Under the pieces are notes generated by a model that worked only from the letters and a program-made list of their open reading frames with translations, did no database searches and was not told the DNA's origin. Below are positions 2,037-10,766 of a stretch of 11,155 bases of DNA, one piece after another (within the stretch, counting starts at the first letter, position 1; every line of letters begins with the position of its first letter). Source of the stretch: a virus (Duplodnaviria; Heunggongvirae; Uroviricota; Caudoviricetes); the IMG/VR virus record IMGVR_UViG_2529292887_000008. One strand, written 5' to 3'. Made by a program: the position numbers and the translations under genes.

Positions 2037-2240
2037 TCAGGCTGGTGGGCAATTACCTTGCTTGTTGGGGCCGTATTGTGCTGCCATTTTCATCCGTTCA
2101 GAACGTGAATATTTTTTTAGAAACTCATCAAGGACAAAAGCGCATGGAGCGAATCTTTCTGATTCATGCTCGAGCGCCATATTTTCGTGCTCTCTGTTCG
2201 TTTTTTGCGATGGTGTATTGGTTGATTCTTTATTGGTCAT
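2037..2240 (-). CDS. Small hypothetical protein (67 aa), paralogue of 2698-2925
   Basis: Shares N-terminus MTN(K/N) and motif ERFAPCAFVLDEFLKKYSRS / EKFALEDFVDKYPRR and a C-terminal PP(A/G) with the 75-aa protein at 2698-2925; preceded by the same conserved ~45-bp leader. Confidence 0.5.
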   Translation of the reverse strand: MTNKESTNTPSQKTNREHENMALEHESERFAPCAFVLDEFLKKYSRSERMKMAAQYGPNKQGNCPPA

Positions 2241-2246
2241 TGTGTG

Positions 2247-2294
2247 TACCTGTAAAGCAATGCGCCGGAGTTCCTCACGCCACGGCGCTGATGT
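2247..2294 (-). promoter_or_regulatory. Conserved ~45-bp intergenic element (copy 2) between RHH gene and small-protein gene
   Basis: CCTGTAAAGCAATGCGCCGgAGttCCTCACgCCACGGCGCTGAT nearly identical to 2931-2980; contains inverted repeat GCGCCG...CGGCGC (6-bp stem, 15-nt loop) followed on the transcribed strand by AUUGCUUU. Confidence 0.45.
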
Positions 2295-2297
2295 TTT

Positions 2298-2477
2298 TTA
2301 TTCTTTGGGTTCAATACCGCGTTGCTGTAATTCTTTTCGGATTATTCGTTTTATCCAAGCAGCTAAAGAGTCATCACCGTCTTGTTGTTGTGCTTTTTCC
2401 ATCTTTTCCCGTAAGTCAGGATCTAAACGGAACTGGAAAGGAGGATTACCACGCCTTTCATTCTTGTGTGTTGACAC
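2298..2477 (-). CDS. Ribbon-helix-helix (Arc/CopG-like) DNA-binding protein, 59 aa, putative GTG start; absent from the ORF track
   Basis: Manual minus-strand translation: VSTHKNERRGNPPFQFRLDPDLREKMEKAQQQDGDDSLAAWIKRIIRKELQQRGIEPKE; predicted beta-strand FQFRLD plus two helices parallels the RHH protein at 2983-3162. In-frame ATG at 2402 would remove the beta-strand, so GTG 2477 is preferred. Confidence 0.45.
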   Translation of the reverse strand: MSTHKNERRGNPPFQFRLDPDLREKMEKAQQQDGDDSLAAWIKRIIRKELQQRGIEPKE

Positions 2478-4158: not shown

Positions 4159-4458
4159 ATGAAACTTAAATATTCTGGCTTAACTGCCAGTGGCAACACT
4201 CACCCTAAATTTACGCGCGGTGATATTTACCGCGACCAGTACGGCGGCACGGTAATGATTAAGGGCGTGGCGGGACGGTGCGTAACTTACCGCCGTGAAG
4301 GTTACGAATATGATTGCGTGATGCCTGTTTATCAGTTCCGGCGTGATTTTTCTCTGGTACAGACCGCGCCGCATAACGTGCCCACCAGCAACGCCAGGGC
4401 ACGGGCAAACATCCAGAAGCTGAAAACCATGATTAACGGATTCAGGGGTAAAAAATGA
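4159..4458 (+). CDS. Hypothetical protein (99 aa)
   Basis: SD GGAGA 9 nt upstream of ATG 4159; stop overlaps the primase start (ATGA at 4455-4458). Confidence 0.55.
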   Translation: MKLKYSGLTASGNTHPKFTRGDIYRDQYGGTVMIKGVAGRCVTYRREGYEYDCVMPVYQFRRDFSLVQTAPHNVPTSNARARANIQKLKTMINGFRGKK

Positions 4459-6203
4459 AACTGGCACCGAACGTAAAAAAACAGCCACGCGGAATAAAAC
4501 ACAAAGACACAGAGGTAATTATCTTTGCGGGTAGTGATGCCTGGTCGCACGCGAAACAATGGCAGGAGCAGGATGGCCCCGCATCCGGCGATAATGTGCC
4601 GCCTGTGTGGCTTGGGCCAAAGCAGCTTGCCGAACTTGATGCGCTGAAAATTGTTCCGGATGGGAAAAAGCGCGTAAGGCTGTACCAGGCCGGAGAACTG
4701 GATTTAGTGGAGACCAAAAAGATTGGTCAGAAGCTGGCGGCGGCAGATATTCAGGACGCAAATTTTTACCACGAAGGAATGCACGTCCAGAAGTGTGAAA
4801 ACTGGCGGCGCTATCTGAATGCTGAGCGTGAAAATATTGCCGCAGGGCTTACCATGCCGGAGCAGAAAAATACGCAACTGGCACAAATGGCAGACAGTGA
4901 GCGCGCACAGATGCTTGCTGGTCGATTTGATGGCGTTTGTGTGCATCCGGAAAGTGAAATCGTTCACGTATGGCGCGGCGGGGTATGGTGTCCGGTCAGC
5001 ACAATGGAACTTAGCCGCGAAATGGTGGCGATCTATTCAGAGCACAGGGCCACTTTCAGCAAGCGCGTAATCAATAACGCCGTGGAAGCATTAAAAGTTA
5101 TTGCCGAACCAATGGGCGAGCCGTCCGGCGATTTGTTGCCGTTCGCCAATGGTGCGCTTGACCTGAAAACAGGGGAATTTTCCCCGCACACGCCGGAGAA
5201 CTGGATCACCACGCACAACGGCATTGAATACACGCCACCAGCACCAGGGGAGAATATCCGCGACAACGCGCCAAACTTTCATAAATGGCTTGATCACGCA
5301 GCCGGAAAAGACCCGCGCAAGATGATGCGTATATGTGCCGCGCTGTACATGATTATGGCGAACCGGTACGACTGGCAGATGTTTATTGAGGCCACCGGAG
5401 ACGGCGGGAGCGGTAAAAGTACATTCACACACATAGCCAGCCTTCTGGCAGGGAAACAGAACACGGTAAGCGCTGAAATGACATCGCTTGATGATGCTGG
5501 TGGACGTGCGCAGGTTGTCGGGAGTCGTCTTATCGTCCTGGCAGACCAGCCGAAATATACAGGCGAAGGAACGGGCATCAAGAAAATCACGGGCGGCGAC
5601 CCCGTGGAAATAAACCCGAAATATGAAAAGCGTTTCACGGCGGTAATCAGGGCGGTGGTGCTGGCGACCAATAATAACCCGATGATATTCACCGAACGGG
5701 CCGGAGGTGTGGCACGTCGTCGCGTGATTTTCCGTTTCGACAATATTGTTAGTGAGGCCGAAAAAGACAGGGAACTACCGGAAAAAATTGCGGCTGAAAT
5801 CCCCGTTATTATCCGCCGCTTGCTGGCGAACTTTACCGACCCTGAAAAGGCGAGGGCTTTACTACTGGAACAGCGTGACGGTGATGAAGCACTGGCAATA
5901 AAGCAACAGACGGATCCGGTTATTGAGTTTTGCCAGTTCCTGAATTTTCTGGAGGAAGCGCGCGGCCTGATGATGGGTGGCGGTGGTGATTCAGTGAAGT
6001 ACACGACCAGGAACAGCCTTTACCGCGTCTATCTGGCGTTTATGGCATACGCAGGCAGGAGCAAACCGCTAAACGTGGCTGAGTTCAGCAAGGCCATGAA
6101 GCCAGCGGCGAAAGTTTACGGGCATGAATATATTACGCGAAAAGTTAAGGGAGTAACGCAGACCAACGCAATTACAACAGACGATTGCGACGCGTTTTTA
6201 TAA
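4455..6203 (+). CDS. Replication initiator: P4-alpha / D5-family primase-helicase (582 aa)
   Basis: Walker A GDGGSGKST (nt ~5401-5427), Walker B-like RLIVLADQ, and overall resemblance to the phage/plasmid primase P4-family C-terminal domain; SD AGGGG upstream; iteron origin immediately downstream as in PICIs. Confidence 0.88.
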   Translation: MKLAPNVKKQPRGIKHKDTEVIIFAGSDAWSHAKQWQEQDGPASGDNVPPVWLGPKQLAELDALKIVPDGKKRVRLYQAGELDLVETKKIGQKLAAADIQDANFYHEGMHVQKCENWRRYLNAERENIAAGLTMPEQKNTQLAQMADSERAQMLAGRFDGVCVHPESEIVHVWRGGVWCPVSTMELSREMVAIYSEHRATFSKRVINNAVEALKVIAEPMGEPSGDLLPFANGALDLKTGEFSPHTPENWITTHNGIEYTPPAPGENIRDNAPNFHKWLDHAAGKDPRKMMRICAALYMIMANRYDWQMFIEATGDGGSGKSTFTHIASLLAGKQNTVSAEMTSLDDAGGRAQVVGSRLIVLADQPKYTGEGTGIKKITGGDPVEINPKYEKRFTAVIRAVVLATNNNPMIFTERAGGVARRRVIFRFDNIVSEAEKDRELPEKIAAEIPVIIRRLLANFTDPEKARALLLEQRDGDEALAIKQQTDPVIEFCQFLNFLEEARGLMMGGGGDSVKYTTRNSLYRVYLAFMAYAGRSKPLNVAEFSKAMKPAAKVYGHEYITRKVKGVTQTNAITTDDCDAFL

Positions 6204-6486: not shown

Positions 6487-6801
6487 ATGCGCATACATCA
6501 AAATCACTTAACAAACATGCCAGCCGAAAACATGAATCAGGGGCGACAAATGACCAAAATTCGCAGAGACAGAACAGAGCCAAAATATAAAGCGTTAGAC
6601 ATGACTGAGCACACCTTAAAGGTGGCAATCAGAACGATAGACCGCCACACGCGGGAAGGATACGCGAAGGAACATCCCGAACTGATAAGCGCATTCATGA
6701 CCACAGCGGCGGCAAACTTTGCCACGCTGACAGAACGGGAGATTGCCGAAGCGGAACAGGTAACAACCATCAACGTTAAAACCGGAGAGGTGGAATCATG
6801 A
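6487..6801 (+). CDS. Hypothetical protein (104 aa; alternative starts at 6550 or 6601 possible)
   Basis: SD AGGGGG upstream of ATG 6487; stop overlaps ssb start (ATGA at 6798-6801). Confidence 0.5.
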   Translation: MRIHQNHLTNMPAENMNQGRQMTKIRRDRTEPKYKALDMTEHTLKVAIRTIDRHTREGYAKEHPELISAFMTTAAANFATLTEREIAEAEQVTTINVKTGEVES

Positions 6802-7208
6802 CAGCACAGATAGCCGCTTACGGGCGGCTGGTGGACGACCCGCAGGTAAAACAGACCAGCAAGGGCACACCGATGACGCTGGCGCGTATGGCGGTCCCCC
6901 TTCCGTGCAGCCAGGCAGATGACGGAACGGCTACGTTATGGCTATCGGTGATGGCATTTGGTAAGCAGGCCGACTTCCTGGCTAAACATCAAAAAGGCGA
7001 CGTTGCCAGCATATCTGGCGTGATGCAGATAAGCCAGTGGACCGGACAGAACGGGGAAACGCGGCAGGGTTATCAGGTTATTGCAGACAGCGTAATCAGT
7101 GCCCGTGCGGCACGTCCTGGCGGGAACAGACGCAAAACCACAGGCGCACAGGGTAATCAGCCACCAGCGGGAGACGATGACCCCTACGGTGATGATATTC
7201 CGTTCTGA
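6798..7208 (+). CDS. ssb: Single-stranded DNA-binding protein (SSB-like, 136 aa)
   Basis: C-terminal acidic tail DDDPYGDDIPF (the canonical SSB tip is DDDIPF), Gly/Gln/Pro-rich linker, N-terminal OB-fold-like region (AAYGRLVDDPQV...LWLSVMAFGKQA...); SD GGAGAGG upstream. Confidence 0.75.
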   Translation: MTAQIAAYGRLVDDPQVKQTSKGTPMTLARMAVPLPCSQADDGTATLWLSVMAFGKQADFLAKHQKGDVASISGVMQISQWTGQNGETRQGYQVIADSVISARAARPGGNRRKTTGAQGNQPPAGDDDPYGDDIPF

Positions 7209-7216
7209 ACGCACAG

Positions 7217-7238
7217 GCCGGAGAAAATCCGGCTTTTT
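7217..7238 (+). terminator. Intrinsic terminator
   Basis: Stem GCCGGA (7217-7222) / TCCGGC (7228-7233), loop GAAAA, then TTTTT (7234-7238). Confidence 0.65.
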
Positions 7239-7243
7239 GTACC

Positions 7244-7288
7244 CAAAAAAAGCCCGATAAGTACAGGAGGAAGCTTATCGGGCTTTTG
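7244..7288. terminator. Bidirectional intrinsic terminator
   Basis: A7 tract (7244-7250), stem AGCCCGATAAG (7251-7261) / CTTATCGGGCT (7273-7283), then TTTTG. Confidence 0.55.
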
Positions 7289-7361
7289 CTTACGAGGTTA
7301 ACAGCATGGTGACTACTGTTGCTGTAAATCATTTCATAATTTGCAACACAACTCAATTTTA

Positions 7362-7412
7362 TTGCGCAAAATGCAATCATGATTATAATCATAACTGGAT
7401 GAACATCCAGTT
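7362..7412 (+). promoter_or_regulatory. Promoter of capsid/packaging operon with overlapping palindromic operators
   Basis: -35 TTGCGC 7362-7367, 16-bp spacer, -10 TATAAT 7384-7389; 10-bp palindrome AATCATGATT at 7375-7384; 20-bp inverted repeat AACTGGAT-GAAC-ATCCAGTT at 7393-7412. Confidence 0.5.
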
Positions 7413-7445
7413 GTGATTTTTTAAGTCAAAGAGGAATTTCTGACT

Positions 7446-7652
7446 ATGGCAGAAGAGAAAAAAGGCGGTGTTTCGGTGTACATAAGCCCCGAAATCGTGG
7501 AGGTGCTCAAGCAGCGCCACAAAAAAAACTATGAGGCTGGCGTAGCGGCTGGACTGGATCCGCTGATGACGCCGGAGCCGTCGATAGGTTCACTTGTGCG
7601 CTCTTATTTACTTGCGGCGCTTGGGATGCATAAAAATTATGGGGGTGAATAA
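7446..7652 (+). CDS. Hypothetical protein (68 aa), possibly RHH-like
   Basis: SD AAGAGGA upstream; the stretch VSVYISPEIVEVLKQRHKK suggests a beta-strand followed by a helix; stop overlaps capsid gene start (TAATG). Confidence 0.5.
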   Translation: MAEEKKGGVSVYISPEIVEVLKQRHKKNYEAGVAAGLDPLMTPEPSIGSLVRSYLLAALGMHKNYGGE

Positions 7653-8707
7653 TGGCAGGCAAAGCAACGGCACTTAACACTAACCAGCTTTTTGCGTACC
7701 TGAATCGCGGGGATATTGCGGAATTTAAATTCAGTCCGCTGTTTACCACGCTGTTTTTCCCGAACGTGGCGACATTCAGCACCCAAAACATCATGCTGGA
7801 TACCCTGGACATTGAAGAAGTCACCATGTCGGCGTTTTGTTCGCCTATGGTTGGCAGCCAGGTACAGCGCGATAAAGGATACGAAACCAGCACGATTAAA
7901 CCTGGCTACATGAAGCCAAAGCACGAAATCGATCCAACAAAAACCATCATGCGCATGGCTGGAGAAGATCCGGCACAGCTTAACGACCCTACCTACCGAC
8001 GTATGCGCCTGATTACTGGCAACATGCGCCGCCAGGTAAACGCCATTAAAGCGCGCGTGGAATGGCTGGCGGTGAATGCGATAACGACCGGAAAAAACAT
8101 TATTGAGGGCGAAGGCATAGAACGCTATGAAATAGACTGGAAAATACCGGAAAACTGCATCATAGAGCAGGGCAAGGGTAAAAAATGGTCCGAGCAGGAT
8201 AAAGAGATGCACGACCCAATCTATGACATCGAGCTTTATGCTGATCAGGCTGGTTGCCCCGCAAACGTCATGATTATGGGCGCTGAGGTATGGCGCACGT
8301 TACGCAGCTTTAAAAAATTCCGTGAGCTGTACGATCTTTCCCGTGGTTCAGAATCCGCCGCAGAACTGGCCTGTAAAAACCTGGGCGAAGTGGTGAGCTT
8401 TAAAGGCTATCTGGGCGATATTGCCCTTATCGTCTATTCCGGCAAATACGCTGACAGCGACGGCACAGAAAAATATTTCCTTGAGCCTGATTTGCTGGTT
8501 CTGGGCAACACCAACAATAAAGGGCTGGTGGCCTATGGTGCGATAATGGATCAGGAAGCGGTAAGAACGGGCGCAACACAAAACATGTTTTACCCGAAAA
8601 ACTGGATTGAGGACGGCGATCCGGCGATTGAGTACGTGCAGACACACAGTGCACCGCAGCCGGTACCGGCAGATATTCGCAAATTTGTTACCGTCAAAAT
8701 TGGTTAA
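7652..8707 (+). CDS. Major capsid protein, lambda gpE family (351 aa)
   Basis: Conserved blocks versus lambda gpE as I recall it: EFKFSPLF..LFF, PGYMKPKHEIDP, EDPAQLNDPTYRRMR, WSEQDKEMHDPIYDIELYA, RGSESAAELACKNLGEVVSFKGYLGDIALIVYSGKY, VLGNTNNKGLVAYGAIMD, YPKNWIEDGDPAIEY...SAP; similar length (351 vs 341 aa). Confidence 0.88.
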   Translation: MAGKATALNTNQLFAYLNRGDIAEFKFSPLFTTLFFPNVATFSTQNIMLDTLDIEEVTMSAFCSPMVGSQVQRDKGYETSTIKPGYMKPKHEIDPTKTIMRMAGEDPAQLNDPTYRRMRLITGNMRRQVNAIKARVEWLAVNAITTGKNIIEGEGIERYEIDWKIPENCIIEQGKGKKWSEQDKEMHDPIYDIELYADQAGCPANVMIMGAEVWRTLRSFKKFRELYDLSRGSESAAELACKNLGEVVSFKGYLGDIALIVYSGKYADSDGTEKYFLEPDLLVLGNTNNKGLVAYGAIMDQEAVRTGATQNMFYPKNWIEDGDPAIEYVQTHSAPQPVPADIRKFVTVKIG

Positions 8708-8719
8708 CGGGGGGATTCT

Positions 8720-9055
8720 ATGGACACTCCATACATTGAGTTATTTGCAGGCAGTCAGCAGGTCGCCACGACGCTGGTACATTTTGCCGCTGATGCTGGC
8801 GTTATTCAGGAATTTACCCCGCTGATGCTGGCGGACAATGGCGAGTTTAAGCCGTGGGATGGTAAGGAATCTGGCAAGGCTGTTTATCTGACCTCGTACC
8901 CTGTGGACACGTCAAAGCAGAAATCAGCACAGTGTTACAAGACGGGGATATTCAATATTGCCGCCGTTAACTGGCCTGAGAGCGTCGACACCGATGCGAA
9001 AAAATGCGCCGCCTTTGCGGGTTCCGGCGTATCCGTTCAGCCGCTGGCCCGATAA
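8720..9055 (+). CDS. Head decoration protein, lambda gpD family (111 aa)
   Basis: Blocks TPLMLAD, WDG, YKTGIFN, WPE, AFAGSGVS match lambda gpD (TPLMLD, WDG, YKSGTF, WPE, AFAGTAIS); same length class (111 vs 110 aa); SD GGGGGG upstream. Confidence 0.78.
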   Translation: MDTPYIELFAGSQQVATTLVHFAADAGVIQEFTPLMLADNGEFKPWDGKESGKAVYLTSYPVDTSKQKSAQCYKTGIFNIAAVNWPESVDTDAKKCAAFAGSGVSVQPLAR

Positions 9056-9067
9056 GCAGGGGGAACG

Positions 9068-9481
9068 ATGGCAACGAATGAAAGCATCATGACGCTACCG
9101 CTGGCGAGTAAATTTAAAGCCGAAGCGCGGGCAATGGCTGACAGAGGTTTATCAACCTATGAGGCCGTATATCAACTAAACAAACTGGAAGAGCAGGACA
9201 AGCCGCGCGCTGATGCGATTATGGCGCTTCATGAGCATAAAGACTATCAGCCGCTGTTGCGTGCAATGGCAAACGTGCCTTGTATCGATGTTGGTACGGC
9301 TAAAAGCATCCTTAGCATGACCATAGAGCAGGAACGTCCGAAGGTTGCGCCGGAACTTACCGCAGCCTTTGAAAACTTTATGGACATGCACAGCCCGCAA
9401 GCCGTATCAGCTGGCATGGCATACGATGGCAGAAACCAGGGCGATGACGGCGACATCGATCGCATACTGAAAACCATCTGA
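9068..9481 (+). CDS. Hypothetical protein (137 aa), last gene of capsid operon
   Basis: SD AGGGGGA upstream; followed by an intrinsic terminator. No family assignable from the sequence alone. Confidence 0.6.
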   Translation: MATNESIMTLPLASKFKAEARAMADRGLSTYEAVYQLNKLEEQDKPRADAIMALHEHKDYQPLLRAMANVPCIDVGTAKSILSMTIEQERPKVAPELTAAFENFMDMHSPQAVSAGMAYDGRNQGDDGDIDRILKTI

Positions 9482-9487
9482 GACAAG

Positions 9488-9509
9488 GCCGGAGAAATCC
9501 GGCTTTTTT
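9488..9509 (+). terminator. Intrinsic terminator (near-duplicate of 7217-7238)
   Basis: Stem GCCGGA (9488-9493) / TCCGGC (9498-9503), then TTTTTT (9504-9509). Confidence 0.65.
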
Positions 9510-9510
9510 A

Positions 9511-9686
9511 CGGGTCCTTCCTGGAATTATGGCCCGTTACGGGGCGGCGACCTCGCGCGTTTTCGCTATTTATGAGCCTTTTCAGGGGGGTGGTGGTGGT
9601 TTTGTTGTTTGCTCTATCTTTATGAATGAAAAGGGAAAGATGCAAACAATACACCAACCTGAAGCAGTAATTAAGTTGGTGTATTA
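9511..9686 (+). other. cos site 1 (plus orientation): lambda-like cosQ-cosN with a non-lambda cosB
   Basis: CGGGTCCTTCCTGGAATTATGGCCCGTTACG followed by GGGCGGCGACCT (9542-9553; identical to the lambda 12-nt cohesive end as I recall it) and CGCGCGTTTTCGCTATTTATGA; thereafter diverged, with an 11-bp inverted repeat AATACACCAAC (9648-9658) / GTTGGTGTATT (9675-9685) abutting the terS start. Confidence 0.7.
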
Positions 9687-10229
9687 ATGAAATCTCATCT
9701 GATGAACAAAAAAAACATGGCGAAAAGCTGCCGTGTAAGTGCGACAGCGTTCGACAAGTGGGGAGTGACTCCCGTTGAACGTAAAGGCCGTGAGGCGTTT
9801 TATGATGTTGCCAGCGTGATAGACAATAGGGTTAACAATGCAATTAGCCAGCTTACAAACGACAAAGGCGATATTGATGATGATGAACTCTTACGAGTCA
9901 GGATCAGATTACTGACAGCACAGGCGGAGGCGCAGGAACTTAAAAACGAGCGCGATCGCGGTGACGTGATTGATACTGAGTTTTGCCTGTACGCGCTTTC
10001 AAAGCTGGCGAGTCAGATTTCATCAATCATGGACAGCCTCCCGCTTACTATGCAAAGGAGCTTCCCACAGATTACCCCCGCCATGCTGGACAGGCTTAAA
10101 AGGGAAGTGGTTAAAGCCTGTAATGCCAGTGCCAGAGTTGCCGACAACCTCCCACAGATACTGGCTGATTACTTGAAAGAAACAACCGGAAACGTACCGG
10201 AAAAGTTGCTACAGAAGAAAGGCAAGTAA
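9687..10229 (+). CDS. Small terminase subunit, lambda Nu1-like (180 aa; ATG 9702 aligns better with the Nu1 N-terminus)
   Basis: LTAQAEAQELKNERDRGDVIDTEFCLYALSKLASQISSIMDSLPLTMQRSFPQ and LKREVVKACNASA parallel lambda Nu1 (LTRAQADAQELKNARDSAEVVETAFCTFVLSRIAGEIASILDGLPLSVQRRFPE...FLKRDIIKAMNKAA); N-terminus MNKKNMAKS...FDKWG parallels MEVNKKQLADIFG...QNWQEQG. Confidence 0.82.
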   Translation: MKSHLMNKKNMAKSCRVSATAFDKWGVTPVERKGREAFYDVASVIDNRVNNAISQLTNDKGDIDDDELLRVRIRLLTAQAEAQELKNERDRGDVIDTEFCLYALSKLASQISSIMDSLPLTMQRSFPQITPAMLDRLKREVVKACNASARVADNLPQILADYLKETTGNVPEKLLQKKGK

Positions 10230-10256: not shown

Positions 10257-10451
10257 AGAAAGGATCTGATAATGGCATTTTCTGGCTAAAATGCCTCGTG
10301 TCAGATCCTTTCTTTTTTTAATATTTTCATTGTTAAACAGTCTGTTACAGAGAAGAAGAACGGATCTGACTTTTGCCGGAAAATTTTCATAAACAGATAA
10401 AAACCGCGAGGCCGCCGCCCCGTAACGGGCCATAATTCCAGGAAGGACCCG
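10257..10451 (-). other. cos site 2 (minus orientation): lambda-like cosQ-cosN-cosB with altered R elements
   Basis: Reverse complement reads CGGGTCCTTCCTGGAATTATGGCCCGTTACG-GGGCGGCGGCCT-CGCGGTTTTTATCTGTTTATGAAAATTTTCCGG...CCGTTCTTCTTC...AAAAGAAAGGATCTGACA...TCAGATCCTTTCTC, collinear with lambda cosN-cosB (R3/I1/R2/R1) but with GGATCTGA-type R elements at 10262-10269, 10301-10308 and 10362-10369; cosN complement at 10409-10420. Confidence 0.7.
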
Positions 10452-10484: not shown

Positions 10485-10766
10485 ATGACAGAAGCCGAAC
10501 TACTGCGATTAATCCGCCGCGTTACCGGAATCAGCCAGCAGCATGACGAACAGGGCACGCAACCGGACAGCGTGACCGCTGAAAATTATGCGCGTGTTGT
10601 TGCTGAGGTGATGCGCCGTGATGGTATTGAGCTTAACGGCGTGGATATGCGCAACATACGAACCAGAGTCCTTGAGTTGCTGGCATACCGTCGCCGCGTG
10701 GAGATGTATCGGGAGAAGGAGAAAATCACGTACCACTGGAAGAAGCCGGAACGGTTGCGGCGGTAA
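10485..10766 (+). CDS. Hypothetical protein (93 aa)
   Basis: SD GGGGGG 4 nt upstream of ATG 10485; protein-like composition; unknown family. Confidence 0.5.
   Translation: MTEAELLRLIRRVTGISQQHDEQGTQPDSVTAENYARVVAEVMRRDGIELNGVDMRNIRTRVLELLAYRRRVEMYREKEKITYHWKKPERLRR

What the first reader, a model, noticed from the sequence alone, without database searches (positions are those of the whole stretch)
7446..9481. Satellite carries its own lambda-type major capsid (gpE) and decoration (gpD) genes, with no portal, protease, scaffold or large terminase in the window
Within an int-alpA-primase-ori satellite backbone, a four-gene operon encodes a full-length gpE homologue (7652-8707) followed by a gpD homologue (8720-9055), in E-then-D order (lambda is D-then-E), flanked by two unknown ORFs (68 aa, 137 aa). 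A satellite that supplies only the shell and decoration proteins would have to co-assemble with helper portal, scaffold and protease, which points to capsid remodelling or size redirection by capsid-protein substitution. That differs from the known P4 Sid/Psu and SaPI CpmAB strategies, and from capsid-forming PICIs that encode a complete head module. The 68-aa and 137-aa ORFs are candidate size-determination, scaffold or FI-like accessory factors.
Basis: partly seen in the sequence, partly recalled or inferred. Interest (0 to 1): 0.78.

Follow-up and report, generated by a model that had tools for sequence, protein, structure and literature searches.

The report
Known PICI capsid-decoration operon
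This is the capsid-plus-decoration gene cluster already described in 2018 in the E. coli phage satellite EcCICFT073: it is real, widespread and under selection, but published knock-outs found it dispensable for transfer, so the finding is not new and its role is still open.

Summary
7652-8707 is a lambda gpE-type coat protein (Pfam 1e-50) and 8720-9055 a gpD-type decoration protein (2.5e-17). A near-identical element interrupts the host gene tqsA, so no portal, protease or large terminase lies beyond the window.

It is not new. The four-gene block is orthologous to c1498-c1501 of EcCICFT073, the model Gram-negative PICI (coat 96%, decoration 100%, 137-aa protein 98% identical). The coat protein has a crystal structure (PDB 3BQW). 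Fillol-Salom 2018 described these genes, deleted them without effect on transfer or on interference with lambda, and saw only phage-sized packaged DNA. A 2020 study replaced the whole block with cas9.

One claim in the title is wrong: the 137-aa ORF is a stand-alone Nu3-type scaffolding domain (hhalign 98.5%).

What this study adds:
- Satellite coat and decoration proteins form their own clade, 49-96% identical to each other and at most 47% to any phage protein.
- They are under purifying selection (omega about 0.1-0.3).
- They are always in E-then-D order, in 598 of 5426 E. coli genomes.
- A LexA-box-like site sits on the operon's promoter.

Best guess, at moderate confidence: an auxiliary, satellite-made shell kit built on helper portals.

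The parts
7362..7389 (+). Putative sigma-70 promoter of the capsid operon: TTGCGC (7362-7367), 16-nt spacer, TATAAT (7384-7389). It lies within a motif (ATTGC-N7-GCAAT ... GATTATAAT) conserved upstream of orf68 in satellites from E. coli, Salmonella and Edwardsiella.
   Evidence: Read from the sequence. Conservation is seen in the upstream regions printed. The consensus scanner did not report it, because only 3 of 6 positions match in the -35 hexamer. Inferred, not shown.
7393..7412 (.). LexA-box-like palindrome AACTGGATGAACATCCAGTT (CTG-N10-CAG) overlapping the predicted transcription start, inside a 14-bp-stem palindrome (7387-7418).
   Evidence: It is identical in L001 and in CFT073. Equivalent boxes lie at the same distance from orf68 in the Salmonella satellite (14 of 20 matches to consensus) and, with unrelated flanking sequence, in the Lelliottia satellite (14 of 20). 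P(best score >=14 in a 133-nt window) = 0.006.
7446..7652 (+). orf68, orthologue of EcCICFT073 c1498. A small two-helix protein of unknown function whose stop codon overlaps the coat gene's ATG by one base.
   Evidence: PHROG 3255, function unknown. 68% identical to CFT073 c1498 = AAN79967.1. It ends exactly at the coat gene start in six satellite lineages. AF2 pLDDT 73, helices 15-34 and 47-59, no Foldseek match in the PDB.
7652..8707 (+). Satellite-lineage major capsid protein, lambda gpE family (orthologue of c1499; PDB 3BQW).
   Evidence: Pfam PF03864 at 1.1e-50. 43% identical to lambda gpE. 96% identical to CFT073 c1499. phmmer E 1.9e-231 to 3BQW. At most 46% identical to any of 50,697 phage records. 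omega about 0.10-0.15.
8720..9055 (+). Satellite-lineage head decoration (cement) protein, lambda gpD / phage 21 SHP family (orthologue of c1500).
   Evidence: Pfam PF02924 at 2.5e-17. 100% identical to CFT073 c1500. PDB hits 1TD0 and 1C5E. omega about 0.12-0.31.
9068..9481 (+). orf137, orthologue of c1501. A stand-alone Nu3-type scaffolding domain: two ~37-aa 'IMxL..A...' repeats, then the motif FENFMDMHSPQAV, then an acidic tail.
   Evidence: PHROG 53 (head maturation protease), profile positions 495-567 of 583, E 5e-9. tblastn hits only the 3' end of genes annotated C/Nu3. 37-39% identical to residues 416-493 of 501-aa C proteins. The repeat architecture is visible. hhalign 98.5%, E 1.8e-15, 126 columns.
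9488..9509 (+). Intrinsic-terminator-like hairpin closing the four-gene operon: GCCGGA-gaaa-TCCGGC followed by TTTTTT.
   Evidence: Read directly from the sequence. The scanner did not list it.
9511..9586 (+). cos1: cosN GGGCGGCGACCT at 9542-9553, identical to the lambda cohesive end, with flanks like lambda cosQ and cosB. Left arm of a 76-nt inverted repeat.
9687..10229 (+). Full-length Nu1-type small terminase. It occupies the slot that holds RppA (c1503) in EcCICFT073.
   Evidence: Pfam Phage_Nu1 at 2.3e-23. 35% identical to lambda Nu1 over the full length. 50% identical to the C-terminal half (residues 59-168) of PhiR12 Nu1, the region where TerL binding maps in lambda TerS (residues 100-181). 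At most 46% identical to any phage TerS. No similarity to RppA.
10376..10451 (-). cos2 in inverted orientation (cosN-like GGGCGGCGGCCT at 10409-10420 on the minus strand). Right arm of the inverted repeat.
10485..10766 (+). orf93, a conserved satellite protein of unknown function at the right end.
   Evidence: PHROG 1561, function unknown. 84% identical to the CFT073 orthologue and 65% to the one in L009.

Best explanation
WHAT IT IS (confidence about 0.95). The region is the conserved post-replication operon of a classical EcCICFT073-type Gram-negative phage-inducible chromosomal island (PICI) integrated in tqsA. It is orthologous to c1498-c1501. It encodes a satellite-lineage shell kit: a gpE-type coat protein, a gpD-type cement protein and a 137-aa stand-alone Nu3-type scaffolding domain. 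A 68-aa protein of unknown role precedes them and is translationally coupled to the coat gene. Downstream lie the packaging determinants: two lambda-type cos sites in inverted orientation around the satellite's own Nu1-type TerS.

HOW IT MOST LIKELY WORKS (inferred, confidence about 0.4). On SOS induction the operon is expressed, probably after LexA leaves a box on its promoter. The coat protein, templated by the Nu3-like scaffold, assembles satellite-made procapsid shells that must be nucleated on a helper portal and matured by the helper gpC protease. Helper TerL, directed by the satellite TerS at the satellite cos site, fills these shells. The cognate decoration protein then cements the expanded shell, and helper connectors and tails complete the particle.

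This route is auxiliary rather than obligatory, because the island can also be packaged as roughly four-copy concatemers in helper-made T=7 heads. That would explain why laboratory deletions show no transfer defect. Shell size is not known.
For: Identity:
- Coat 96%, decoration 100%, orf137 98%, orf68 68% and orf93 84% identical to the CFT073 genes, in the same order.
- 3BQW match.
- Insertion in tqsA with host genes on both sides.

The proteins are functional, not decaying:
- Nine satellite lineages from E. coli, Salmonella, Edwardsiella, Lelliottia and Serratia all keep intact coat and decoration genes.
- omega is 0.10-0.15 for the coat and 0.12-0.31 for decoration, with synonymous sites saturated.
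- The four-gene block occurs at 90% DNA identity or more in 598 of 5426 complete E. coli genomes (one further match at 80-90%); 592 of the 598 hold 80% or more of the block.
- It is present in 80 of 80 sampled IMG/VR contigs, with decoration in 79.

An old satellite lineage, not a recent capture:
- Satellite coats are 49-96% identical to one another but 38-47% to phage coats, including the coat of a satellite's own embedding helper (46% in L013).
- Gene order E then D is shared by all the satellites and is the reverse of lambdoid D then E.

Shell-building logic (inference from established lambda biology): gpD only acts on expanded, DNA-filled gpE lattices, and Nu3 only acts inside assembling procapsids. 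Co-conservation of a cognate cement and a scaffold domain therefore implies that real shells are made. The scaffold assignment rests. A Lelliottia relative carries a complete S49 gpC protease in the same slot.

Dependence on the helper: no portal or TerL in any of the nine contexts. Among the 80 viral contigs none has a TerL, and only the three apparently helper-embedded ones (L044, L045, L083) have helper head genes alongside the island.

SOS control: LexA-like box at the promoter in three lineages.
Against: - Deleting c1499 or c1500 did not change transfer by the resident CFT073 helper prophage or interference with lambda. Expressing the genes one at a time did not inhibit lambda (PMC6092414 and PMC6739421).
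- With lambda as helper, all packaged DNA was phage-sized. After induction of CFT073 no 'PICI monomer' band was seen.
- An island with the whole c1498-c1501 block replaced by cas9 was still packaged by phi80 delta-cos and delivered (PMC10530653).
- No particle containing the satellite coat protein has been reported in the papers found.
- Compatibility of a coat protein only about 45% identical to the helper's with the helper portal and protease is untested.
- The LexA-like box is missing from three of the six orf68-carrying lineages sampled and from all the AlpA-type ones.

Caveat on the published negatives: transfer assays used islands marked as c1501::tetA or c1499::cat. One gene of this operon was therefore probably already disrupted in every assay. 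c1501 = orf137 is inferred from consecutive accessions and from the 'c1498-c1501' block name.
Confidence: 0.45

Rival explanations
1. Size or shape redirection of the helper's own capsid, as with Ccm or CpmB. The satellite coat homologue and/or the short Nu3-like protein co-assemble with the helper's gpE. orf137 would compete with helper C/Nu3 for the same docking site, giving small capsids that hold one satellite genome and exclude the helper genome.
For: - SaPIbov5 Ccm is a precedent for a capsid homologue, and SaPI1 CpmB for an alternative internal scaffold that directs small capsids.
- PmCI172, which also encodes a coat homologue, makes small capsids.
- orf137 keeps the C-terminal motif of helper C/Nu3 proteins (FENFMDMHSP versus FEHFMANHSP) but is much shorter.
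- orf137 matches the 501-aa C proteins of the CFT073-prophage / PhiR12 type and does not match lambda C. A null result with lambda is therefore expected.
Against: - Only phage-sized DNA was seen with lambda, and no monomer-sized band in induced CFT073.
- Deletions did not relieve interference; RppA accounts for it.
- A cognate decoration protein would be superfluous if only helper lattices were being remodelled.
- About 45% identity makes mixed capsomers uncertain.
Confidence: 0.2
2. Spare parts. The genes act as a backup or complementation set that lets the satellite use helpers whose coat, decoration or scaffold genes are interrupted (helper-embedded PICIs) or defective (cryptic lambdoid prophages). 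They have no role with an intact helper.
For: - Relatives sit inside helper late genes: L010 inside gene E, and L013 and L044 inside the portal gene.
- This would explain the absence of a phenotype with intact helpers.
Against: - The window's element and EcCICFT073 are chromosomal, not helper-embedded.
- L013 interrupts the portal gene yet carries coat and decoration genes, not a portal gene.
- The satellite coat is no closer to its own helper's coat (46%) than to any other phage coat. That is odd for a replacement part that must fit the helper's portal, scaffold and cement, although the satellite does bring its own cement and scaffold.
Confidence: 0.15
3. Not a packaging function at all. The coat and decoration proteins would act as interference or defence factors against non-helper lambdoid phages (poison subunits), or as decoys for capsid-sensing host immunity.
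For: - PICIs commonly carry anti-phage functions in the post-replication region (background knowledge).
- The strong conservation despite dispensability for transfer fits a benefit expressed outside the transfer assay.
Against: - Overexpressing individual genes of this region other than rppA did not reduce lambda plaquing.
- The deletions did not restore lambda plaquing.
- A poison or decoy would not need a cognate cement protein or a scaffold domain.
- None of the papers found here's searches reports such an activity for these genes.
Confidence: 0.1
4. An ordinary prophage fragment, or a complete head module continuing beyond the window.
For: The genes belong to phage structural families. IMG/VR classifies such contigs as viral.
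Against: - Host genes flank the 11.7-kb element on both sides.
- There is no near DNA match to any of 50,697 phage records.
- Nine independent contexts lack portal and TerL inside the element.
- 77 of 80 IMG/VR loci have no helper head gene within reach.
Confidence: 0.01

Closest known systems
EcCICFT073 (E. coli CFT073 PICI), genes c1498-c1501; Fillol-Salom et al. 2018 ISME J (PMC6092414); coat protein crystal structure PDB 3BQW
   Same: Same backbone and gene order: int, alpA, DUF4222, primase, SSB, orf68, coat, decoration, orf137, cos, X, cos, orf93. Protein identities are 96% (coat), 100% (decoration), 98% (orf137), 90% (primase), 94% (SSB) and 84% (orf93). The palindrome/LexA-like box upstream of orf68 is identical.
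   Different: The slot between the cos sites holds a 180-aa full-length Nu1-type TerS here, not the 144-aa RppA (c1503). orf68 is only 68% identical. There is no PerC gene between ssb and orf68. The integration site is tqsA, whereas EcCICFT073 lies next to phoQ.
SaPIbov5 Ccm (capsid-homologue size redirection) and SaPI1 CpmB (alternative internal scaffold)
   Same: A satellite encodes a homologue of the helper's coat protein (Ccm) or a short alternative scaffolding protein (CpmB) while relying on the helper portal, protease and terminase.
   Different: No sequence relationship was found. The helpers are Gram-positive phages. Ccm and CpmB have demonstrated small-capsid phenotypes, whereas the EcCICFT073 orthologues showed none with lambda. 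This element also carries a cognate decoration protein.
Capsid-forming PICIs (cf-PICI, prototype EcCIEDL933; Alqurainy et al., bioRxiv 10.1101/2022.09.08.507074)
   Same: The same int-alpA-rep left half, and a satellite-encoded coat protein.
   Different: [quoted passage not shown] This element has no portal, protease, connectors, HNH or TerL.
Helper-embedded PICIs (11capE and relatives; Tommasini, Mageeney & Williams 2023, PMC10111431)
   Same: The same four-zone organisation, with a 'late zone' carrying a gpE-type capsid gene. The relatives L010, L013 and L044 found here are of this type.
   Different: The window's element sits in a chromosomal gene (tqsA), not in a helper late gene.
P4 (Sid, Psu, Delta)
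   Same: A small integrative satellite with a P4-alpha-like D5_N primase and AlpA-type regulator that uses the helper's cos packaging.
   Different: No Sid or Psu homologue was detected. P4 remodels the helper coat protein gpN with an external scaffold and encodes no coat protein. The genome organisation differs (PMC6092414).

Membership tests
Classical Gram-negative PICI (EcCICFT073 type) | Tyrosine integrase at the left end, with site-specific insertion into a host gene | tested here: met
   Arm-DNA-bind_3 and Phage_integrase domains at 1-1230. A near-identical element splits tqsA.
Classical Gram-negative PICI (EcCICFT073 type) | AlpA-family regulator downstream of int | tested here: met
   PF05930 at E 5e-18 for 1605-1793.
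Classical Gram-negative PICI (EcCICFT073 type) | Own primase/replicase (pri-rep) followed by the ori region | tested here: met
   D5_N, DUF5906 and Pox_D5 domains at 4455-6203, 90% identical to the EcCICFT073 primase. The ori itself was not mapped.
Classical Gram-negative PICI (EcCICFT073 type) | Size about 10-15 kb, lacking most phage structural and lysis genes | tested here: met
   About 11.7 kb between the tqsA fragments. Only coat, decoration, Nu3-like and TerS homologues are present.
Classical Gram-negative PICI (EcCICFT073 type) | Helper-type cos site and/or own TerS or Rpp | tested here: met
   cosN identical to lambda's at 9542-9553, a second inverted cos site, and a Nu1-type TerS.
Classical Gram-negative PICI (EcCICFT073 type) | Helper-phage-induced excision, replication and high-frequency transfer | not testable with these tools
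   Shown experimentally only for EcCICFT073 (PMC6092414). Two TerS-encoding E. coli islands tested in that paper transferred poorly under the same conditions.
Capsid-forming PICI (cf-PICI) | Encodes portal, head maturation protease, head-tail connectors, TerL and HNH in addition to the coat protein | tested here: not met
   None of these is among the ORFs of 40 aa or more. Host genes flank the element.
Lambda gpE major capsid family (PF03864) | Full-length match to the profile; HK97 fold | tested here: met
   E 1.1e-50, profile positions 14-328 of 329. E 1.9e-231 to the crystal structure 3BQW and E 4.9e-81 to lambda capsid 7VI9.
Lambda gpD / SHP decoration family (PF02924) | Match to the HDPD profile and to solved gpD/SHP structures | tested here: met
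   E 2.5e-17. 1TD0 at 5.6e-13 and 1C5E at 3.5e-9. Trimer formation and capsid binding were not tested.
Lambdoid C/Nu3 scaffolding domain | One or more ~37-aa repeats of the type (I/V)M..(E/D)A.G.E....L...PGMT...A..L, followed by F-x-x-F-M-x-x-H-S-P and an acidic tail | tested here: met
   Two degenerate repeats plus FENFMDMHSPQAV plus DDGDID. hhalign 98.5%, E 1.8e-15 over 126 columns against phage C/Nu3 C-termini. PHROG 53 C-terminus at 5e-9. Scaffolding activity was not tested.
Lambdoid C/Nu3 scaffolding domain | Nested in, or fused to, an S49 protease gene | tested here: not met
   orf137 is a free-standing gene with no protease domain. A Lelliottia relative has a complete S49 gene in the same slot.
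Ccm-type capsid-homologue size redirection (SaPIbov5) | Satellite-encoded coat homologue required for small capsids and incorporated into them | not testable with these tools
   The coat homologue is present. The published test with lambda on the EcCICFT073 orthologue gave phage-sized DNA only.
Rpp-type packaging redirection (RppA/B/C) | Protein of about 144-153 aa with a TerS-like wHTH and its own dimerisation helix, lacking the TerL-binding C-terminus | tested here: not met
   The slot holds a 180-aa protein that aligns with lambda Nu1 over its full length. It shows no BLAST similarity to RppA and no PDB hit to RppC.
P4-like satellite | Sid external scaffold, Psu, and Delta/Ogr-type activator | tested here: not met
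   No Pfam or PHROG match of that kind in any ORF tested.

The most novel reading that the evidence does not exclude
The coat, cement and mini-scaffold trio, possibly under direct LexA control, could represent a third satellite strategy. It would lie between 'steal the whole capsid' (classical PICIs, P4) and 'build the whole capsid' (cf-PICIs): the satellite makes its own shell but steals the portal, maturation protease, packaging motor, connectors and tail.

With cognate helpers (those with 501-aa C proteins whose Nu3 tail orf137 mimics), that shell might be smaller than T=7 and hold one or two copies of the 11.7-kb genome. On this reading the published null results reflect non-cognate helpers (lambda, phi80) and marker insertions inside the operon.
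Probability: 0.2. Interest if true: 0.65.

Novelty: already known. Interest (0 to 1): 0.3.

Why it matters
About one in nine complete E. coli genomes carries this block (598 of 5426). A coat gene is the commonest 'late' gene of Gram-negative PICIs, yet nobody has found what it does.

The analysis here shows three things. The genes are an old, satellite-specific lineage under purifying selection, not debris from recent capture. The neighbouring c1501-type gene is a Nu3-type scaffold. The operon may be SOS-controlled, as SaPI operon I is.

Together these turn a vague 'no phenotype' into a testable hypothesis: satellite-made shells on helper portals, assayed with cognate helpers and unmarked islands. 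If that is confirmed, it would fill the gap between capsid-stealing and capsid-forming satellites. It would also bear on the use of this block as a disposable cargo site in engineered PICIs. As a discovery claim, however, the finding itself is not new.

Tried and rejected
1. Prophage fragment or hidden head module: rejected by the flanking host genes and by the absence of any near DNA match to phages.

2. orf68 as gpW (also 68 aa) or as a ribbon-helix-helix regulator. There is no similarity to lambda W and no Pfam or NCBIfam hit. The AF2 model has two helices and no strand, and Foldseek found no PDB match at E < 1. Function remains unknown.

3. orf137 as FI-like: no similarity to lambda FI or to the CFT073-prophage FI.

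4. orf137 as a remnant of a satellite S49 gene such as the one in Lelliottia: BLAST found no direct similarity to that protein's C-terminus. The Lelliottia C-terminus does share the repeat architecture by eye and was included in the phage-side profile.

5. The 180-aa or 93-aa proteins as Rpp: no PDB or BLAST similarity.

6. A genome-contig scan with the single coat protein returned nothing confirmable. Exact-protein contig look-ups and IMG/VR were used instead.

7. Whole-library HMMER with orf137 found only close relatives, plus one 134-aa and one 195-aa Nu3-like protein. The family is narrow at the sequence level.

8. Rfam at gathering thresholds found no RNA family in the window.

9. Literature searches for a later functional study of c1499/c1500, or for LexA control of Gram-negative PICI operons, found none in the held library.

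10. Predicting the T-number of the satellite shell from sequence or genome length was considered and dropped as unreliable. One copy (11.7 kb) is near a T=3-like capacity, and four copies (46.7 kb) fill a lambda head, so length does not discriminate.


Full report
OBSERVATION

The window is one co-oriented element:
- integrase (1-1230)
- AlpA (1605-1793)
- a block of small ORFs
- DUF4222 (4159-4458)
- D5_N/DUF5906 primase (4455-6203)
- SSB (6798-7208)
- the four ORFs of the finding

ORF 7652-8707 matches Pfam Phage_cap_E at E 1.1e-50 almost end to end. It is 43% identical to lambda gpE. ORF 8720-9055 matches the gpD family at 2.5e-17 and is 36% identical to lambda gpD. Nothing in the window resembles a portal, an S49 protease or a large terminase.

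The closest complete genome is E. coli OkiPb01694, at 96.9% identity over 95% of the window. There the element is about 11.7 kb and splits the host gene tqsA. pntAB lies on one side and mdtJI on the other. No phage record shares DNA with the module.

IT IS ALREADY DESCRIBED

The coat protein matches PDB entry 3BQW, 'putative capsid protein of prophage', at E 1.9e-231. In E. coli CFT073 the same gene string lies next to phoQ: 68-aa ORF, coat, decoration, 137-aa ORF, a 144-aa ORF, 93-aa ORF. This is EcCICFT073, the model Gram-negative PICI.

Protein identities between the window and CFT073 are:

| Protein | Identity |
|---|---|
| Coat | 96% |
| Decoration | 100% |
| 137-aa ORF | 98% |
| 93-aa ORF | 84% |
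| 68-aa ORF | 68% |
| Primase | 90% |
| SSB | 94% |

What the papers report:
- Fillol-Salom et al. [quoted passage not shown] They deleted each gene. Neither interference with lambda nor transfer by the resident prophage changed, and all DNA packaged with lambda was phage-sized.
- Interference and packaging specificity were later assigned to RppA (c1503, 144 aa).
- The Dokland 2019 review repeats the capsid-homologue observation.
- Tommasini et al. 2023 count a capsid gene in 21 of 29 reference Gram-negative PICIs.
- Ibarra-Chavez et al. 2020 replaced the whole c1498-c1501 block with cas9, and the island was still delivered by a phi80 delta-cos helper.

The CFT073 68-aa protein is AAN79967.1, one accession before c1499 = AAN79968. 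The finding's four ORFs are therefore exactly c1498-c1501.

First, the 137-aa ORF is a scaffold homologue.
- It hits the C-terminal end (profile positions 495-567 of 583) of PHROG 53, 'head maturation protease', at 5e-9.
- tblastn against all phages finds only the 3' ends of genes annotated C/Nu3.
- Residues 49-131 align with residues 416-493 of the 501-aa C proteins of the CFT073 icd prophage and of PhiR12, at 37-39% identity.
- Lambdoid C/Nu3 tails consist of one to three ~37-aa repeats (…IMxLxEAxGxE…PGMT…A..L…), then F-x-x-FM-x-x-HSP, then an acidic tail. orf137 has two degenerate repeats, then FENFMDMHSPQAV, then DDGDID.
- A profile-profile comparison gives 98.5% probability, E 1.8e-15, over 126 columns.
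- There is no detectable match to lambda's own C/Nu3.

Second, the window also carries packaging determinants.
- A cos site whose 12-nt cohesive end is identical to lambda's lies at 9542-9553.
- A second cos-like site lies in inverted orientation (10409-10420, minus strand). Together they form a 76-nt inverted repeat.
- Between them is a 180-aa small terminase that aligns with lambda Nu1 over its whole length, where EcCICFT073 has RppA. The alignment includes the C-terminal region, where TerL binding maps in lambda TerS.

So this island is a TerS variant of the EcCICFT073 type. Among 80 IMG/VR contigs carrying this coat gene, 36 have the TerS and 19 have RppA.

NEW COMPARATIVE EVIDENCE

Homologues of the coat protein at 50-96% identity occur in E. 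coli, Salmonella, Edwardsiella, Lelliottia, Serratia and other enterobacteria. I examined nine genomic contexts. All are int-alpA-primase islands with coat followed by decoration, and none has a portal or TerL inside the island.

Variants seen:
- a full S49 gpC-type protease after the decoration gene (Lelliottia, L014)
- an AlpA-like gene in that slot, with no orf68 (L009, L011, L012)
- islands embedded in a helper's E gene (L010) or portal gene (L013, L044)
- one island inside a P2-like tail cluster (L012)

Satellite coats are 49-96% identical to each other. They are only 38-47% identical to lambda, the CFT073 prophage, PhiR12, or even the helper that embeds the satellite (46%). Those phage coats are 59-95% identical among themselves. 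Of the 407 phage records (out of 50,697 in the collection) that match the coat protein, all fall below 60% identity, and the best listed match is 46%. Decoration proteins show the same pattern.

All copies are intact. Synonymous sites are saturated in most pairs. Where it can be measured, omega is 0.10-0.15 for the coat and 0.12-0.31 for decoration; window versus CFT073 coat gives dN 0.021 and dS 0.209.

The four-gene block is present in 598 of 5426 complete E. coli genomes, at 90% DNA identity or more in all but one. The E-then-D order, opposite to lambdoid phages, is shared by every satellite. These data argue for one old acquisition maintained by selection, not for repeated recent capture or decay.

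MECHANISM

Shown: the identity of the proteins, their conservation, and the absence of portal, protease and TerL.

Established lambda biology: gpD binds only expanded gpE lattices and stabilises filled heads. Nu3 acts only inside assembling procapsids. A DNA-packaging head needs a portal, and lambda head maturation needs gpC.

Inferred: a satellite that keeps a coat protein together with its own cognate cement and a scaffold domain is making real shells. Because it lacks a portal, protease, motor, connectors and tail, those shells must be completed with helper parts. The satellite TerS and cos site would direct helper TerL to satellite DNA.

The published knock-outs show this route is not required for transfer, because helper-made heads also take the island. 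Four copies total about 46.7 kb, 96% of a lambda genome. I therefore rate it an auxiliary route, at about 0.4.

Two caveats soften the published negatives:
- The helpers used for DNA sizing and for the cas9 island were lambda and phi80. orf137 resembles the tail of the 501-aa C proteins, not lambda C.
- The transfer assays used islands marked as c1501::tetA or c1499::cat, so one operon gene was probably already interrupted.

Rivals:
- Ccm/CpmB-like size redirection of helper capsids (0.2)
- spare parts for interrupted or defective helpers (0.15)
- a non-packaging interference or decoy role (0.1)

REGULATION (noticed in passing)

Two terminator-like hairpins follow ssb, and another follows orf137. 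The four genes therefore look like one transcription unit.

Upstream of orf68 is a conserved promoter-like motif with a perfect TATAAT. Immediately after it comes the palindrome AACTGGATGAACATCCAGTT, a CTG-N10-CAG LexA-box pattern that matches the consensus at 13 of 20 positions. It is identical in CFT073. A Salmonella satellite has a 14-of-20 box at the same place, and a Lelliottia satellite has a different 14-of-20 box (CACTGTTTTTTCATACAGTT) there as well. A score of 14 or more occurs in 0.6% of random 133-nt windows from the fetched loci.

Other lineages lack the box. This resembles LexA control of SaPI operon I. None of the papers I could search mentions it for Gram-negative PICIs.

WHAT LED NOWHERE

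- orf68 has no detectable relatives outside these satellites. Its AF2 model (pLDDT 73, two helices) matches nothing in the PDB.
- Rfam found nothing in the window.
- A first genome-collection scan with the single coat protein failed.

VERDICT

The feature is already known: it is orthologous at 96-100% protein identity to genes described and knocked out in 2018, one of which has a solved structure.

The residual interest lies in the unresolved function. It also lies in three small additions made here: c1501 is a Nu3-type scaffold, the coat and decoration genes form a satellite-specific clade under purifying selection, and the operon has a candidate SOS box. Interest 0.3.

Noticed in passing
window 7393-7412 (within palindrome 7387-7418); also L003:5409-5428, L006 ~9722, L014 ~9729: LexA-box-like CTG-N10-CAG palindrome overlapping the predicted promoter and transcription start of the capsid operon. 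It lies at the same distance from orf68 in the E. coli, Salmonella and Lelliottia satellites and is absent from other lineages. It suggests SOS control like that of SaPI operon I. The papers searched do not mention it.
   Followed up: partly
window 9511-9586 and 10376-10451: Two lambda-type cos sites form a 76-nt inverted repeat (87% complementary) around the terS gene. cos1 has the exact lambda cohesive end. cos2 (one mismatch in cosN, more lambda-like cosB) points the other way. The gene between them is TerS here and RppA in EcCICFT073, which suggests cassette exchange between the repeats.
   Followed up: partly
window 9687-10229: The satellite small terminase is full length and at most 46% identical to any phage TerS (best match N15). 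Its C-terminal half is 50% identical to PhiR12 Nu1. Among 80 IMG/VR contigs with this coat gene, 36 carry this TerS type and 19 carry RppA.
   Followed up: partly
window 7320-7390 and the equivalent upstream regions of L003, L006, L007, L008, L013: Conserved promoter-region motif ATTGC-N7-GCAAT followed by (C/G)ATGATTA(T/A)AAT upstream of orf68, across satellites whose coat proteins are only 63-68% identical. It is duplicated in the Edwardsiella island. It could be a binding site for an unknown activator.
   Followed up: no
L014:11409-12752 (Lelliottia sp. SL45): A related satellite carries a complete 447-aa S49 gpC-type protease/scaffold gene directly after coat and decoration, in the slot held by orf137 in the window. 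It still has no portal or TerL. It is intermediate between classical and capsid-forming PICIs.
   Followed up: partly
L012 (Salmonella enterica GCA_005980655.1), island at about 4292-14000: A satellite with a gpE-type coat (51% identical) and decoration gene sits inside the tail-gene cluster of a P2-like prophage. P2-type phages use an unrelated coat family, so the coat gene cannot be a copy of this neighbouring prophage's own coat gene.
   Followed up: no
L010 (E gene split at 2511-2786 / 13309-14073); L013 (portal split at 765-1625 / 11908-12681); L044: Helper-embedded PICIs were recovered among the relatives. One interrupts the helper's own capsid gene while carrying the satellite coat gene. 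Two interrupt the portal gene yet carry no portal gene.
   Followed up: partly
window 2230-2304 and 2915-2989: A 75-nt direct repeat (80% identity, 685 nt apart) lies between minus-strand small ORFs in the region between alpA and the primase. It indicates a duplicated cassette. The flanking small proteins compared are not similar, and no Rfam family matched.
   Followed up: partly
window 7208-7446 versus L003:4948-5462: EcCICFT073 has a PerC-family regulator gene between ssb and orf68. The window lacks it and has two terminator-like hairpins there (7217-7241 and 7245-7292).
   Followed up: no
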